Source: Phycisphaerae bacterium
GTDB taxonomy: Bacteria; Planctomycetota; Phycisphaerae; UBA1845
Direction of reading: 5' to 3'
DNA: 64,000 bases
NCBI GenBank assembly: GCA_963666835.2
Contig: CAXXGO010000006.1
Span: 2,610,493 to 2,674,492 of the forward strand
The position numbers were made by a program, and so were the translations under genes. The notes beneath the pieces are model-generated. The model had not been told where the DNA came from and made no database searches. It was given only the letters and a program-made list of their open reading frames with translations. Shown here piece by piece: positions 9,394 to 18,434 of this stretch (within the stretch, counting starts at the first letter, position 1; the number at the start of each line of letters is the position of its first letter).

Positions 9394-9466
9394 TGGAGCC
9401 GAGCGGGCTCGAACCGCCGACCTCCTGGTTGCAAACCAGGCGCTCTCCCAGCTGAGCTACGGCCCC
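9394..9466 (-). tRNA. tRNA-Ala(UGC), CCA not encoded
   Basis: Reverse complement GGGGCCGTAGCTCAGCTGGGAGAGCGCCTGGTTTGCAACCAGGAGGTCGGCGGTTCGAGCCCGCTCGGCTCCA; cloverleaf, TTCG T-loop, anticodon TGC. Confidence 0.97.
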
Positions 9467-9733
9467 GTGTACGCACGACGAAGCTGCCGCAGCCGCGTAG
9501 CGCAGGCATTCTGCCTGCCGCCGGCGACCTTGACGGCCCCGCGCGTGCCAGGGGAAGCTACCATATCGGCGGGGATAAGCAAGCGTCGGGACCCACCCCG
9601 ACCGGCGAGACCATGAGCGATAACGTGCCCACGCCCGGCGGGGCGACCATTGTATAACGGCGAACAGAGATTCCGCGGCGGTGGCGGTGACTCGGGGTCG
9701 CCATGCGGGTGCGGTTCTGCAATACTGGCGATC

Positions 9734-13011: not shown

Positions 13012-13135
13012 GGGTGCCCCATCCTTCGCCCCCGGCGAAGGGTGGGGAATGGACCCGCGTTCTCTTCTGACAAGCTCCTGCAGCCGCCCAGTGTAGTTCT
13101 TTCGGACGGGTGGCCCATCTCTTTAGAGGTGGGGA
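13012..13135. repeat. Repeat family A (REP doublet), copy 1, right part truncated or variant
   Basis: GGGTGCCCCATCCTTCGCCCCCGGCGAAGGGTGGGG hairpin followed by ...ctgacaagctcctgcagc...gtgtagttctttc. Confidence 0.85.
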
Positions 13136-13599: not shown

Positions 13600-13638
13600 G
13601 GGCGCCCCATCCTTCGCCCCCGGCGAAGGGTGGGGGGA
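13600..13638. repeat. Repeat family A copy 2, left part (5' exon of the intron)
   Basis: GGGCGCCCCATCCTTCGCCCCCGGCGAAGGGTGGGGGG. Confidence 0.85.
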
Positions 13639-15563
13639 AAGCGCCGGTAAGCCGGTGAGGAGTAGTGGATGAGAGAGCCATACGGTGAAGGAATAGCGAA
13701 CCACACCGACCCCGAGTCATACTGTGGTGTCCGCAAGGGCATGGCGGGAGCGTTGACAGGGGCACGTGCGGGCCGGCCATTGAGCCGTGAAAGCCTTTTA
13801 CTCCGGAGTGCCGACGCCGTCCCCCAAGGCGGAAGGCAACACCGGAGGGCGTCGTTAACGCGAGACGCCTTTCGGACTCCGCGCGGTCTTAGAACCCGAG
13901 CACGCACGGAAACTCCTCACGCGGAACCCGGGAGATCCCGCGTTCGGCCTCGAACATGGCATCGAGGTCCGCAGTGTGAATCCATAGGAGCACGACACTG
14001 ATGCACGGGCGCGGGAAGTCGGACAGGCCCATAGTACCGAAGAAGACTGCGAACAACGGTGATCCCCCGGCGGGGAGGTCGTCCGCGGAGCAGTTGGAGG
14101 AAAGGGGCCTGGCCAAGGGCAACTCGATTCGACACGACAGGCACCGTACGCAGAGCCGGGATCGTCTGCAAAGCGGGTTGGATCGGGTACGACAGGCAGC
14201 GGTAAAGGATAAGGATTTACAGTTCACCACGCTTTGGCACCATGTCTATGATGTCGCTCGCCTCCGGGAGGCGTACTTGAGCCTCAAGCATGCTTCGGCA
14301 CCGGGGATGGACGGCATGACATGGGAGGCGTACGGCAGGGACCTAGAAGAACACCTCTTGGATCTGTCGGCACGTCTACAGCGCGGAGCGTACCGAGCGA
14401 GGCCGGTCAAGCGGGTCTACATTCCGAAACCCGATGGACGGCAGAGACCAATAGGGATTCCCGTGTTGGAAGACAAGATCGTCCAACGGGCGATGACCGA
14501 TGTGCTCTCGGCTGTCTACGAGGCAGACTTCCTCGGGTTCTCCTACGGATTTCGACCAGGACGGGACGCCCATCAGGCGTTAAGTGCCCTGACTGTCGGC
14601 ATCGAGAGGAAGAAGGTGAATTGGGTGCTGGATGCAGACATTCGTGGATTCTTCGATGCCATAGACCACGATTGGCTGATCAAGTTCGTCGAGCACCGGA
14701 TCGCAGACCAGCGTGTCGTGCGTCACGTGAAGAAGTGGCTGAACGCCGGCGTGCTGGAGGACGGGTGTCGAAGGGACACGGAGACGGGGACGCCGCAGGG
14801 GGGCAGTATCAGCCCGCTATTGGCGAACATCTATCTCCATTACGCCTTCGACTTGTGGGCCCGCCAATGGCGACGGACGCAAGCTCACGGAGATGTGATT
14901 ATCGTGAGATATGCGGACGACTTCGTGGTGGGATTTCAACAGCGAGAGGATGCCGAGCGGTTTCGGGATGAGCTGACGGATCGCCTCCGGAAGTTCAAGC
15001 TGGAGCTACATGCGGACAAGACTCGTCTGATTGAGTTCGGCCGTTTTGCGTCGACCAATCGCAAGCGAGAAGGCCGCGGCAAACCGGCGACCTTCGAGTT
15101 TCTGGGTTTTCGCCACATCTGTGGCAAGACCCGGCGTGGGAGGTTCACGGTACTACGGCAGACTGTCGCGAAACGACGGCGTGCGAAGCTCAAAGCGATT
15201 AAGCAAGAGCTTCGGCGACGTATGCATGCCCCCGTCCGAGAGGTGGGCGCGTATTTGCGGGCGGTGGTTCGCGGGTACTATCAGTATTATGCGGTACCGC
15301 GGAACTACCCGGCCTTAACGGCATTTCGGGATGAGGTTGTCCGTCTTTGGCGCTGGACGCTCCGGCGTCGTAGCGAGAAGACTCGGATTACCTGGGCCCG
15401 CATGAACCGTTTGGCCAAGCAGTGGATACCTGCTCCCAAAATCCTACATCCTTACCCCGACCGACACCTGGCCGTTATGACCCAAGGCAGGAGCCCAGTG
15501 CGGTAGTCCCGCACGCTGGGATCTGTGGAGGGGGTCCCGGGTAACCGGGATTCCTACTCCGAC
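13639..15563 (+). mobile_element. Group II intron (resembles bacterial class E), inserted inside repeat family A
   Basis: Domain V GAGCCCAGTGCGGTAGTCCCGCACGCTGGGATCTG with AGC triad; domain VI ends ...ctactccgAC at 15563; the flanks rejoin into a family A repeat; 5' boundary +/-2 nt. Confidence 0.9.
14001..15506 (+). CDS. ltrA: Group II intron reverse transcriptase/maturase (no endonuclease domain)
   Basis: IPKPDGRQRPIGIP, FSYGFRPGR, LDADIRGFFD, GTPQGG.ISPLLANIYL, RYADD and FLGF motifs, plus a maturase domain. Confidence 0.96.
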   Translation: MHGRGKSDRPIVPKKTANNGDPPAGRSSAEQLEERGLAKGNSIRHDRHRTQSRDRLQSGLDRVRQAAVKDKDLQFTTLWHHVYDVARLREAYLSLKHASAPGMDGMTWEAYGRDLEEHLLDLSARLQRGAYRARPVKRVYIPKPDGRQRPIGIPVLEDKIVQRAMTDVLSAVYEADFLGFSYGFRPGRDAHQALSALTVGIERKKVNWVLDADIRGFFDAIDHDWLIKFVEHRIADQRVVRHVKKWLNAGVLEDGCRRDTETGTPQGGSISPLLANIYLHYAFDLWARQWRRTQAHGDVIIVRYADDFVVGFQQREDAERFRDELTDRLRKFKLELHADKTRLIEFGRFASTNRKREGRGKPATFEFLGFRHICGKTRRGRFTVLRQTVAKRRRAKLKAIKQELRRRMHAPVREVGAYLRAVVRGYYQYYAVPRNYPALTAFRDEVVRLWRWTLRRRSEKTRITWARMNRLAKQWIPAPKILHPYPDRHLAVMTQGRSPVR

Positions 15564-15739
15564 ACTGATCCGCATTCGTTTCTGACAACCTCCTGCAGCT
15601 ACCGAGTGTAGTTATTCCGCCCCGGTTTGGTCAAGCAGGTCTCCGCACGCGCGATGAACCGGTGTAGATGGGGGCCTGATTCGCCGGTAAGCGAAGCGAT
15701 CCGTCTCCCACGCTCGGTGCGCGAAGAAGTGAGGCACGC
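15564..15739. repeat. Repeat family A copy 2, right part (3' exon)
   Basis: actgatccgcattcgtttctgacaacctcctgcagc...gtgtagtt...ccggtttggtcaagca...aaccggtgtagatg...gatccgtctcccacgc...aagtgaggcacgc. Confidence 0.85.
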
Positions 15740-16267: not shown

Positions 16268-16475
16268 GGGTGCCCCGTCCTTCGCCCCCGGCGAAGGGTG
16301 GGGGATGGCCCCGCGCTGACTTCTCGACAAGCCTTCGCTGTCGCCTGTTGTAGTTCTTTCGCTCCGGTTTGGTCAAGCACGTCTCCGCATACGGGATGAA
16401 CCGCTTGGGAAGGGGACTGCATTCTGCCCGAGGCGATCCGCCACCCCCCCCTTGCTGCGCAAGCATGGGGCGCCC
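16268..16475. repeat. Repeat family A copy 3 (complete doublet)
   Basis: Left arm GGGTGCCCCGTCCTTCGCCCCCGGCGAAGGGTGGGG; conserved spacer; inverted right arm cccccttgctgcgcaagcatggggcgccc. Confidence 0.85.
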
Positions 16476-18068: not shown

Positions 18069-18434
18069 GGGTGCCCCGTCCTTCGCCCCTGGCGAAGGGT
18101 GGGGAATGGATCCGGAACCTGCTTCAGTCAGCGAATGCCAAACGTGGTCCGCCCGTACGTTGAGCAATGCGACGTTCACAGCGTGCCGATCTTGTACTGT
18201 TCCTGGTTGTAGTTGCTTCGGCCGGGTTTGGTCAAGTGAGTTTCCGCAAGCGGGATCAACCGGTGTAGATGGTGGCTGAAGTCCGCCCGTTACCGTGTCG
18301 ATCCGTCCCCCACCCATTCCGGCGGGGAGTCGGCATGGCTACGGCAGCTCGGCAAACGCCGGAATGAATGGGGTACCCGCCTGGTTACCGTGTCGATCCG
18401 TCCCCCACCCTTGCTACGCAAAAGTGGGGCACCC
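18069..18434. repeat. Repeat family A copy 5 (complete, with internal duplication)
   Basis: Left arm at 18069; right arm ccccacccttgctacgcaaaagtggggcaccc ends at 18434; ttaccgtgtcgatccgtcccccaccc occurs twice (~18290 and ~18385). Confidence 0.85.

What the first reader, a model, noticed from the sequence alone, without database searches (positions are those of the whole stretch)
13600..15739. Group II intron inserted in the cassette-boundary repeat, antisense to the cassettes, with a non-canonical 5' end
Seen in sequence: removing ~13639-15563 rejoins '...GGCGAAGGGTGGGGGG(A)|ACTGATCCGCATTCGTTTCTGACAAC...', which aligns with the uninterrupted copy at 13012 ('...GGTGGGGAATGGACCCGCGTTCTCTTCTGACAAG'). 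The insertion lies just 3' of the REP hairpin and is opposite to cassette orientation. No GUGYG is present; the equivalent position reads AAGCG. Established knowledge: class C introns insert after hairpins, and IIC-attC introns target attC sites in the opposite orientation. This intron instead has an AGC-triad domain V and an IEP C-terminus resembling class E. Inference: a non-class-C intron lineage specialised on this REP hairpin as a multi-copy safe harbour.
Basis: partly seen in the sequence, partly recalled or inferred. Interest (0 to 1): 0.7.

Follow-up and report, generated by a model that had tools for sequence, protein, structure and literature searches.

The report
REP-homing class E group II intron
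This is an active, self-copying group II intron of bacterial class E that has spread to twelve places in one planctomycete genome by base-pairing with one arm of a small repeated DNA hairpin, and it starts with GAAAGCG instead of the textbook GUGYG.

Summary
It sits one base after a 14-bp REP-type hairpin.

- **Copies:** the genome has 12 near-identical copies, all at the same position of the same repeat family. Another 53 sites are empty.
- **Class:** it is not class C. Its reverse transcriptase groups with S.me.I4 (class E) and Kl.pn.I5. It shares their Rfam family, RF02005.
- **Target recognition:** it has a 6-bp EBS1, an EBS2 and an EBS3. All three covary with the exons across relatives.
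- **Hairpin:** IBS1 and IBS2 lie inside the hairpin's 3' arm. The intron therefore reads the repeat's sequence, not a hairpin in the class C manner.
- **Strand bias:** it inserts on one strand only.
- **Integron reading:** not supported. No integron integrase was found, and the antisense orientation is local only.
- **5' end:** the empty sites show that the intron begins G-AAA-GCG. Ten of 38 related introns carry one or two extra bases at this point.
- **Why that matters:** 5' splice sites known to be shifted were described only in immobile introns.

This scan has already noted REP-homing group II introns in other genomes. The new point here is the altered 5' end in a mobile intron.

The parts
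13605..13635 (+). REP-type hairpin of the 5' exon. The 5' arm is 13605-13618, the loop 13619-21 and the 3' arm 13622-13635.
   Evidence: DNA fold gives -22.2 kcal/mol, z -3.8, and 0 of 200 shuffles fold as well. The motif recurs at 4 sites in the window and at 65 strict sites in the genome.
13625..13630 (+). IBS2, GAAGGG. It lies inside the 3' arm of the hairpin.
   Evidence: It is complementary to CCUUUU at 13794-13799. Across 35 introns the EBS2-IBS2 complementarity scores 4.41 against 2.99 +/- 0.28 for shuffled pairings, and 0 of 500 shuffles reach it.
13631..13636 (+). IBS1, UGGGGG. These are the last 6 nt of the 5' exon.
   Evidence: It is complementary to CCCCCA at 13821-13826. The sister intron has GACCUG paired with CAGGUC at the same place.
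13637..15563 (+). The group II intron, 1927 nt, bacterial class E.
   Evidence: Boundaries come from 12 occupied against 53 empty sites and from contig break points. There are 12 copies with 7 variable columns.
13637..13643 (+). 5' terminal motif GAAAGCG, standing in place of GUGYG.
   Evidence: Alignment to relatives that start with GUGCG. The same heptamer occurs in 6 of 38 distinct related introns.
13644..13655 (+). Small hairpin CCGG-UAAG-CCGG directly after the 5' motif. It is a feature of the lineage.
   Evidence: The equivalent CCNGG-loop-CCNGG follows GUGCG in relatives.
13672..13896 (+). Domains I-IV core, Rfam RF02005.
   Evidence: 169.4 bits, E 1e-50, with model positions 1-225 matched.
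13794..13799 (+). EBS2, CCUUUU, in the large bulge after GAAA.
   Evidence: Covariation test.
13821..13826 (+). EBS1, CCCCCA, in the loop of the hairpin CGCC-GU...GGCG.
   Evidence: Register calibrated on relatives: offset 0 is among the best for 16 of 17 GUGYG introns.
13889..13889 (+). EBS3, U.
   Evidence: This alignment column is Watson-Crick complementary to the first 3'-exon base in 22 of 24 introns. The next best column reaches 14 of 24.
14001..15506 (+). Intron-encoded RT/maturase, 501 aa, with YADD and no endonuclease domain found.
   Evidence: TIGR04416 at 370 bits. Pfam finds RVT_1 only. The ORF is intact in 11 of 12 copies.
15491..15524 (+). Domain V. The AGC triad is 15492-94. The 5-nt loop UAGUC at 15504-08 holds the ORF's stop codon.
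   Evidence: RF00029 alignment and sequence. A 5-nt loop is the IIE/IIF trait named in PMC3753933.
15527..15560 (+). Domain VI, with a bulged A at 15556, 7 nt before the 3' splice site.
   Evidence: RF00029 alignment, read from the sequence.
15564..15564 (+). IBS3, A, the first base of the 3' exon.
   Evidence: It is A in 12 of 12 copies and pairs with U13889.
15564..15700 (+). The rest of the interrupted intergenic repeat unit.
   Evidence: Similar to 13046-13110 and 16305-16420.

Best explanation
This is a retromobile bacterial class E (IIE) group II intron whose homing site is a dispersed REP-type repeat.

**How it finds its target**
- EBS2 (CCUUUU) and EBS1 (CCCCCA) pair with the 12 nt GAAGGG-UGGGGG. 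In most sites the first half reads AAUGGG or GAUGGG. These 12 nt form the 3' arm of the repeat's hairpin.
- EBS3 (U) pairs with the A that follows.
- The intron RNA reverse-splices between G13636 and A15564 and is copied by its own RT, which has no endonuclease domain.

**Inferred steps**
- Because the RT has no endonuclease, priming probably depends on replication (inferred). That would explain why only one strand orientation of the repeat is occupied.
- The repeat is intergenic and multi-copy, so insertions probably cost the host little (inferred).

**The 5' end**
- The intron begins G-AAA-GCG. The first G and the GCG of the usual GUGCG are kept, and the single U between them is replaced by three A.
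- The splice and insertion junction therefore lies 2 nt upstream of the pentamer homologous to GUGYG.

**Sister intron**
- A 670-nt sister intron without an ORF, in the same genome, has the same 5' end. Its EBS1 and EBS2 are retuned to a second, GTAG-type REP.
For: **Identity and class**
- Rfam and IEP model matches.
- The IEP is 57.5% identical to the disrupted RT on pRmeGR4b. I equate this RT with S.me.I4, class E, by elimination, from a passage of PMC5894124. Identity to RmInt1 (class D) is 34%.
- S.me.I4 and Kl.pn.I5 also match RF02005. RmInt1 matches RF01999. A IIC phage intron matches RF02001 and RF01998.
- In the tree, a clade of 26 of 38 rows with SH-aLRT 97 holds the window's IEP, S.me.I4 and Kl.pn.I5. 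The class D, IIC and IIA anchors fall outside it.

**Mobility**
- 12 copies with 7 variable columns in 1927, and 12 different flanks.
- Two 5'-truncated fragments.
- In public contigs the intron is 7-10 times deeper than its flank.

**Target**
- 12 of 12 copies follow GGGTGGGGG, and 53 empty sites exist.
- EBS1, EBS2 and EBS3 all covary with the exons.
- On contig C6, + strand, occupancy follows the IBS2 type: 8 of 10 AAUGGG/GAUGGG sites against 2 of 17 other sites, Fisher p 0.0007. This grouping was made after seeing the data.

**Strand**
- On C6 the occupied sites are 10 on + and 0 on -. The empty sites are 17 on + and 27 on -, p 0.0007.
- Among sites of the preferred type, 8 of 10 are occupied on + and 0 of 13 on -, p 9e-5.
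- Three of 3 copies in regions of clear GC skew lie on the G-rich strand.

**5' end**
- Empty against occupied sites and contig break points at 13636.
- GA precedes AAGCG in 6 of 6 such introns, although their exons are unrelated.
Against: **No RNA evidence**
- Splicing, a lariat and transcription are not shown. The runs laid are contigs of unknown kind.

**Replication reading is only partly testable**
- GC skew is about 0.002 around 8 of the 12 copies.
- The C7 copy lies against a weak skew.

**EBS2 fit**
- EBS2 pairs perfectly with only 2 of the 12 occupied sites (GAAGGG). The other 10 have a U-U mismatch.
- The perfect type is less occupied, at 2 of 6. Something other than EBS2 pairing therefore also matters, such as stem stability or contacts with the IEP.

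**5' register in relatives**
- An unconstrained search for the EBS1 helix end prefers a junction one base nearer the pentamer. A G-U pair with the conserved U next to EBS1 adds one pair.
- For the window's intron the empty sites settle this. For relatives the 5' G is assigned by homology only.

**Class label**
- It rests on one named anchor identified by elimination, and on a 'quick' tree.
Confidence: 0.8

Rival explanations
1. A class-C-like mechanism. The intron recognises the DNA hairpin as a structure, as IIC and IIC-attC introns do with terminators and attC sites. Only a short guide pairing is then needed.
For: - In 11 of 12 sites the insertion lies 1 nt after a stable stem.
- The ribozyme is compact.
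- Other notes of this scan propose a second hairpin-seeking lineage.
- PMC7923331 reports class E fragments next to attC-like hairpins.
Against: - EBS1 is 6 bp, and an EBS2 covaries with the exon. Class C has 3-4 bp and no EBS2 (PMC4024640 and PMC7923331, passages read).
- IBS1 and IBS2 are the stem itself, so guide pairing and stem exclude each other.
- At site L011 IBS1 is unpaired, next to a weak long-range stem, z -0.49.
- In 35 relatives the upstream 70 nt are hardly more structured than control stretches: z below -2 in 5 of 35 against 2 of 33.
- The RT and the Rfam family are not those of the IIC anchor.
Confidence: 0.08
2. The intron is a passenger. The copies arose because a composite REP element carrying the intron was itself moved or duplicated, for example by a RAYT-type transposase or by recombination, and not by retrohoming.
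For: - The genome encodes Y1 transposases, with 9 PF01797 matches.
- The repeats are composite and abundant.
Against: - The intron copies differ at 7 of 1927 columns, while the hairpins beside them differ in type (short or long) and in their central parts. The outer flanks are unrelated.
- Two 5'-truncated copies fit reverse transcription that stopped early.
- The guide sequences match the junction exactly.
Confidence: 0.04
3. The 5' splice site is the canonical position directly before AAGCG (13639). GA would then belong to the exon, or be added at integration.
For: - AAGCG aligns column for column with GUGCG of relatives.
- In the window's own G-rich exon an EBS1 helix of 6 pairs can also be drawn at that offset.
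Against: - No empty site in the genome reads GGGTGGGGGGA followed by the 3' exon. The 53 empty sites read GGGTGGGGG|A.
- In the 4 other GAAAGCG introns with enough exon sequence, helices ending at that offset have 1, 2, 1 and 4 pairs. Helices ending two bases upstream have 6-8 pairs.
- GA is invariant in 6 of 6 such introns with unrelated exons. Bases added by chance at integration would not be.
Confidence: 0.05

Closest known systems
Bacterial class E (IIE) group II introns: S.me.I4 of Sinorhizobium meliloti GR4 and Kl.pn.I5/Se.ma.I1 of Klebsiella plasmids. Biochemistry of IIE introns is in Nagy et al. 2013, PMC3753933.
   Same: - Same RT clade, at 57.5% and 54.9% aa identity.
- Same Rfam family RF02005.
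- No endonuclease domain, a 5-nt domain V loop, a small ribozyme, and both EBS1 and EBS2.
   Different: - The 5' end is GAAAGCG. Five named-organism relatives whose 5' ends I read start with GUGCG: B. cenocepacia, B. thailandensis, R. solanacearum, A. ferrooxidans and Rhizomicrobium sp.. I did not read the 5' ends of Kl.pn.I5 or S.me.I4.
- The homing site is a REP hairpin arm, with 12 copies and a strand bias.
RmInt1 of S. meliloti (class D, IIB3, no endonuclease).
   Same: - It works alike: homing by EBS1, EBS2 and EBS3 into a multi-copy selfish element (ISRm2011-2).
- It has many copies per genome and prefers the lagging-strand template (PMC8914252, abstract in a search listing; PMC5894124, passages).
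   Different: - A different class: 34% aa identity, Rfam RF01999, and outside the clade.
- Its target is an insertion sequence, not a REP.
- Its 5' end is not described as unusual in the passages I read.
Class C (IIC) and IIC-attC introns.
   Same: - Insertion directly behind an inverted repeat in intergenic DNA.
- No endonuclease domain and a compact ribozyme.
   Different: - EBS1 is 6 bp, not 3-4, and an EBS2 is present.
- An AGC triad. That class C usually has CGC is recalled, not tested.
- A different RT clade and Rfam family.
- The guide pairs with the stem itself.
- No integron integrase in the genome.
Introns with a shifted 5' splice site: C.te.I1 of Clostridium tetani and mitochondrial rRNA introns (McNeil and Zimmerly 2014, PMC4024640; Li et al. 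2011 as cited there).
   Same: IBS1 is not adjacent to the GUGYG-homologous pentamer. A spacer, here 2 nt, belongs to the intron.
   Different: - Those introns are immobile. They have lost EBS2, the branch A and the RT ORF, and they splice by hydrolysis (passages).
- This one keeps all three and has 12 fresh copies.
- Its pentamer is itself degenerate (AAGCG).
REP-targeting mobile elements (Tobes and Pareja 2006, PMC1525189).
   Same: - REPs serve as insertion targets.
- That paper's table lists a group II intron of P. putida KT2440 associated with REPs in 2 of 9 copies.
   Different: Here 12 of 12 copies lie at one nucleotide position of the repeat, with matching guide sequences.

Membership tests
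Group II intron | Domain I-IV ribozyme core | tested here: met
   RF02005 at 169 bits, against a gathering score of 49.
Group II intron | Domain V (34 nt, catalytic triad) and domain VI with a bulged A | tested here: met
   RF00029 at 36.9 bits, E 5e-5, just under the gathering score of 40. AGC lies at 15492-94 and the bulged A at 15556, both read from the alignment.
Group II intron | 5' GUGYG ... AY 3' boundaries | tested here: not met
   The 3' end AC is met. The 5' end is GAAAGCG. The family claim rests on the other features.
Group II intron | RT/maturase ORF in domain IV | tested here: met
   TIGR04416 at 370.6 bits, cut-off 300.
Bacterial class E (IIE) | IEP groups with class E reference IEPs | tested here: met
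   A clade with SH-aLRT 97 holds the window's IEP and S.me.I4, at 57.5% identity. There is only one named class E anchor, and it was identified by elimination from PMC5894124.
Bacterial class E (IIE) | No D/En domain | tested here: met
   Pfam finds RVT_1 only at E <= 0.001.
Bacterial class E (IIE) | 5-nt loop in domain V instead of a 4-nt loop (PMC3753933) | tested here: met
   UAGUC at 15504-15508.
Bacterial class E (IIE) | EBS1 and EBS2 in domain I complementary to the 5' exon | tested here: met
Bacterial class E (IIE) | alpha' at the tip of a stem-loop in DId3, plus an extra bulge (PMC3753933) | not tested
   I could not assign alpha-alpha' with confidence.
Class C (IIC) | EBS1 of 3-4 bp and no EBS2 | tested here: not met
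   6-bp EBS1, and an EBS2 that covaries.
Class C (IIC) | IEP in the class C clade, and a IIC ribozyme | tested here: not met
   The IIC anchor (phage Nanz197 intron) lies outside the clade and matches RF02001 and RF01998. PDB IIC RTs score no better than IIA or IIB RTs: 152 against 145 and 143 bits.
Class C (IIC) | Insertion just after a stem-loop that stays outside the guide pairing | tested here: not met
   IBS1 and IBS2 lie inside the 3' arm.
IIC-attC / integron association | Target is an attC site of an integron or CALIN | tested here: not met
   No integron integrase over the cut-off in a genome that is 92% complete. The repeat does not carry the attC R' consensus GTTRRRY, as read from the sequence. 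No attC model was run.
Shifted-5'-splice-site introns (C.te.I1 type) | [quoted passage not shown] | tested here: met
   A 2-nt spacer.
Shifted-5'-splice-site introns (C.te.I1 type) | Loss of EBS2, the branch A and the RT ORF; immobile | tested here: not met
   All three are kept, and there are 12 copies.

The most novel reading that the evidence does not exclude
In class E introns the stretch between the 5'-terminal G and the GCG of the 5' motif can vary in length. It is 1 nt in GUGCG and GAGCG, 2 nt in GAUGCG and GUAGCG, and 3 nt in GAAAGCG.
- Introns with the longer forms remain fully retromobile.
- The junction used for splicing and reverse splicing can therefore lie 1-2 nt away from the canonical register without loss of EBS2, the branch site or mobility.
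- This runs against the suggestion that mobile introns need IBS1 directly next to GUGYG.
- Two sister introns in one genome have each tuned their guides to a different REP family, so introns can radiate across a host's repeats.
Probability: 0.55. Interest if true: 0.6.

Novelty: new variant of a known kind. Interest (0 to 1): 0.5.

Why it matters
**Mobility and the 5' end**
- Introns with a displaced 5' splice site were described as immobile and degenerate. McNeil and Zimmerly (PMC4024640) asked whether mobility requires IBS1 to abut GUGYG.
- This intron has 12 fresh copies and a 2-nt displacement. Nine more related introns have 1-2 extra bases.
- That makes the question directly testable with a natural, apparently active intron.

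**Annotation**
- Pipelines that look for GUGYG would place this boundary wrongly.

**REP homing**
- The locus is a clean, countable case of one selfish element living on another. There are 65 target sites, 12 of them occupied, on one strand only, and occupancy depends on the IBS2 type.
- I found almost nothing in print on REP homing by group II introns. One search for 'group II intron' + 'extragenic palindromic' + 'retrohoming' returned 0 papers. One table lists 2 of 9 copies in P. putida.
- This scan has met the habit repeatedly in other genomes.

Tried and rejected
**RNA evidence**
- The run search listed one RNA run, with a 0.09 share of the words.
- The four runs I laid are contigs of unknown kind. 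They show depth and break points but no splice junction.
- The joint 13636->15607 in three runs comes from a paralogous empty repeat unit, not from an empty allele of this locus.

**Class from the literature**
- The supplementary tables of PMC3552965 could not be read (old .xls files). They may list relatives of this intron.
- I found no printed class for Kl.pn.I5.

**An anchor label withdrawn**
- I first took the Shigella pINV intron (L109) to be class A. It pairs with RmInt1 in the tree, so I dropped that label.

**GC skew**
- It is uninformative for 8 of 12 copies, at about 0.002.

**Hairpins upstream of relatives**
- Only a weak excess, 5 of 35 against 2 of 33 controls with z below -2. I do not claim a lineage-wide hairpin habit.

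**Rows dropped before counts**
- The fold of the sister intron's GTAG-REP exon shows no significant structure in the upstream 70 nt.
- Rows left out of the trees: L104 (231 aa) from both, and L098 (long branch) from the second.
- L023, L024 and L048 gave no ORF with YADD in the DNA held, so they are absent from the trees.
- nhmmer hits that began after model position 2 were left out of the 5'-end table: L030, L059, L061, L084 and L090.

**Not done**
- Promoter scan, structure prediction, alpha-alpha' assignment, and an attC covariance search.
Full report
**1. What is there**

The + strand of 13637-15563 is a complete group II intron.
- Rfam RF02005 (group-II-D1D4-6) matches 13672-13896 at 169 bits.
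- RF00029 (domains V-VI) matches 15489-15563 at 36.9 bits, E 5e-5, just under its gathering score of 40.
- Between them lies an ORF, 14001-15506, of 501 aa. It scores 370 bits on TIGR04416, the group II RT/maturase model. Pfam finds RVT_1 only, so no endonuclease domain was found.
- Domain V is 15491-15524. It has an AGC triad and a 5-nt loop, UAGUC, that holds the ORF's stop codon.
- Domain VI is 15527-15560, with a bulged A at 15556. The intron ends in AC.

**2. Boundaries**

The window's genome has 6.02 Mb in 7 contigs and is 92% complete. It holds 12 full-length copies.
- The copies differ at 7 of 1927 columns. The ORF is intact in 11 of 12. All 12 have different flanks.
- All 12 follow ...GGGTGGGGG and precede A[CT][GT]GA.
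- A strict search finds 53 unoccupied sites reading GGGTGGGGG|A[CT][GT]GA. None has a sixth G followed by A.
- The insert is therefore G13637...C15563. No other cut reproduces the empty sites.
- Public contigs that match the left flank leave it after 13636 and continue with ACGGAC. This was seen in 5, 5, 4 and 1 contigs in the four runs laid.
- In two of those runs the intron is 7-10 times deeper than its flank.

**3. The target**

- The 5' exon ends in a 14-bp hairpin: 13605-13618 paired with 13622-13635, -22 kcal/mol as DNA, z -3.8. The insertion point is one base after the stem.
- The repeat comes in two forms, a short form as in the window and a long form with a variable centre of about 35 nt. 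It is part of a composite intergenic unit.
- It is not an integron site. No integron integrase reaches the model's cut-off: the best match is 89 bits against 265, and all 14 control genomes give similar weak matches.
- Y1 transposases of the kind that move REPs are present, with 9 matches.
- The neighbouring ORFs in the window are on the minus strand and mostly match no Pfam family.
- Over all 12 copies, by a crude longest-ORF proxy, the upstream neighbour is co-oriented with the intron in 8 and opposed in 4. The antisense position is therefore local.

**4. How the target is read**

I collected relatives from three sources:
- 150 other genomes of the phylum. RF02005 matches in 28 of the 151 genomes searched, the window's own included, and in 0 of 14 controls.
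- GTDB genomes, 54 loci at 31-71% IEP identity.
- Plasmids.

This gave 38 distinct 5' regions.
- **EBS1.** The loop of the hairpin GCCGA-stem-GU...stem-GAAGG carries a sequence complementary to the end of the 5' exon. For 16 of 17 introns starting with GUGYG, the longest helix ends exactly at the base before the pentamer, uniquely so in 14. In the window's intron this loop reads CCCCCA (13821-13826) against UGGGGG (13631-13636). In the sister intron it reads CAGGUC against GACCUG.
- **EBS2.** A second site lies in the large bulge after GAAA and complements the 5-7 nt upstream. Over 35 introns the mean score is 4.41, against 2.99 +/- 0.28 when exons are swapped among introns, and 0 of 500 shuffles reach it. 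Here it is CCUUUU (13794-13799) against GAAGGG (13625-13630).
- **EBS3.** One alignment column, U13889 in the window, is Watson-Crick complementary to the first 3'-exon base in 22 of 24 introns. The next best column reaches 14 of 24. Here U pairs with A15564.

The intron thus has the full IIB-type set of guides. IBS2 and IBS1 together are the 3' arm of the hairpin. The guide pairing and the stem exclude each other, which is the opposite of the class C arrangement.
- One occupied site (L011) has IBS1 unpaired beside a weak, non-significant long-range stem.
- Among relatives the 70 nt upstream are barely more structured than control stretches. z is below -2 in 5 of 35 against 2 of 33.
- I conclude that the sequence of the repeat is what is recognised, not a hairpin as such.

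**5. Class**

- PDB RTs of IIC, IIB and IIA introns score alike, at 152, 145 and 143 bits.
- The best plasmid matches, at 55-60% over the whole protein, are introns of Burkholderia, Ralstonia, Acidithiobacillus and the Klebsiella intron. A table in PMC6764390 names the Klebsiella intron Kl.pn.I5 = Se.ma.I1. All of these match RF02005.
- I fetched that plasmid and found exactly two group II RT loci:
  - an intact 419-aa gene, 34% identical to the window's IEP, matching RF01999;
  - a disrupted RT, 57.5% identical over 318 aa, matching RF02005.
- By elimination the second is S.me.I4.
- PMC12350094 describes a phage intron as sitting in the typical IIC position. It matches RF02001 and RF01998.
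- In a quick IQ-TREE of 38 IEPs, a clade of 26 rows (SH-aLRT 97) holds the window's IEP, S.me.I4 and Kl.pn.I5. RmInt1, the IIC anchor and a IIA anchor lie outside on long branches.
- The 5-nt domain V loop and the small size fit the IIE/IIF description in PMC3753933.

The intron is class E and not class C. The caveats are a single named class E anchor and a quick tree.

**6. Strand bias and occupancy**

- On contig C6 the 10 copies are all on the + strand, while the empty sites are 17 on + and 27 on - (Fisher p 0.0007).
- Occupancy also depends on the six bases at IBS2. On the + strand of C6, 8 of 10 AAUGGG/GAUGGG sites are occupied, against 2 of 6 GAAGGG, 0 of 5 CAUGGG and 0 of 6 others. For the first group against all the rest, p is 0.0007, and the grouping was made after seeing the data.
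- Among sites of the preferred type, 8 of 10 are occupied on + and 0 of 13 on - (p 9e-5).
- Such a bias is what introns without an endonuclease show when they use the replication fork (RmInt1: PMC8914252, abstract in a search listing).
- GC skew can test this for only 3 copies, and all three lie on the G-rich strand. Around 8 copies the skew is about 0.002. The copy on the small contig C7 lies against a weak skew.
- The replication reading is therefore inferred, not shown.

**7. The 5' end**

By alignment, AAGCG stands where relatives have GUGCG, and the hairpin CCGG-UAAG-CCGG that follows is a lineage feature.

| 5' form | Distinct 5' regions, of 38 |
|---|---|
| GUGYG | 17 |
| GAGCG | 10 |
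| AAGCG, always preceded by GA | 6 |
| AUGCG, always preceded by G | 3 |
| UAGCG, preceded by G (three copies in one genome) | 1 |
| unclear | 1 |

- For the window's intron the empty sites prove that GA belongs to the insert.
- For the other AAGCG introns, helices ending directly before the pentamer have 1, 2, 1 and 4 pairs. Helices ending two bases upstream have 6-8 pairs.
- The unconstrained search gives one pair more for a junction one base upstream. This is because the conserved U next to EBS1 can wobble-pair with that G. In canonical introns the base opposite that U is the intron's own G1.
- I therefore read the G as G1 throughout: GUGCG, GAGCG, GAUGCG, GUAGCG and GAAAGCG, that is G-N(1-3)-GCG. 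For the relatives this is homology, not proof.
- GAAAGCG occurs in both main subclades of the tree: the window's intron, L049 and L055 in one, and L073 in the other.

McNeil and Zimmerly (PMC4024640, passages) state three things:
- The known exceptions have lost EBS2, the branch A and the RT, and splice by hydrolysis.
- Mobile introns may need the juxtaposition.

Here a 2-nt displacement coexists with EBS2, a bulged A, an intact RT and 12 fresh copies.

My searches found no description of such 5' ends in class E. The primary class E paper (Toro et al. 2002) and the intron database are not in the library.

**8. Sister intron**

- G000:C6:259364-260033 is a 670-nt relative without an ORF, 69% identical over the ribozyme parts. 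It has the same GAAAGCG start.
- It sits in a different repeat, a GTAG-type REP with 464 core matches in the genome.
- Its EBS1, EBS2 and EBS3 are changed to match.
- A 5' fragment of it lies in the same repeat type on contig C1.

**9. Verdict**

The finding is real.
- The attC and hairpin-recognition framing is not supported.
- It is a new variant of a known kind.
- REP homing has been met repeatedly by this scan in other genomes. The part that is new here is the extended 5' motif in a demonstrably mobile intron.

Noticed in passing
G000:C6:259364-260033 (L025); fragment at G000:C1:352771-352856, minus strand (L017): A 670-nt class E intron without an ORF, 69% identical to the window's intron, that also starts with GAAAGCG. 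It is inserted in a GTAG-type REP, with EBS1, EBS2 and EBS3 retuned to that repeat. It presumably depends on the full-length intron's RT.
   Followed up: partly
G000:C6:about 1065006-1067030 (L016/L018): A third group II intron with a canonical GUGCG start, a 481-aa RT with YADD and a 5-nt domain V loop. It lies between two stretches that encode the same Rhs-like peptide end (RFLQRDPIG...).
   Followed up: no
G000:C7:69129-69536 and G000:C7:94469-94516 (L013, L015): Two 5'-truncated 3' fragments of the intron: 408 nt at 96% identity and 48 nt at 100%. Reverse transcription that stopped early would leave such fragments.
   Followed up: partly
L050 (Burkholderia cenocepacia J2315 plasmid pBCJ2315, record about 9520-9560): A related class E intron is inserted directly after the palindrome TACTGTATGTTTGTACAGT. 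This looks like a LexA box (my recollection). The site lies between imuA and an SOS-response peptidase gene, and the intron's EBS1 pairs with the palindrome's end.
   Followed up: no
window 13605-13636, 13017-13048, 16273-16304, 18074-18105; genome-wide: The repeat is composite. The core GGGTGGGGG can pair with CCCCATCC upstream, or with CCCCCACCC about 50 nt downstream. Many units are followed directly by the GTAG-type REP, which has 464 core matches in the genome.
   Followed up: partly
window 16296-16310: A near-target empty site, GGGTGGGGG|ATGGCC, lies 2.7 kb from the occupied one on the same strand. It fell outside my strict pattern because of its fifth 3'-exon base.
   Followed up: no
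G000:C6, whole contig: GC skew of the + strand is about 0.001 over the first 1 Mb and +0.046 over the rest. Eight of the 12 intron copies cluster in the skew-less part, at 320-800 kb.
   Followed up: partly
L076, L077, L078, L079: Some class E relatives sit 13-24 nt after terminator-like hairpins. L079's upstream 70 nt fold with z -6.6. Most relatives do not.
   Followed up: partly
window 9394-9466, minus strand: A tRNA gene (RF00005, 66.7 bits).
   Followed up: no
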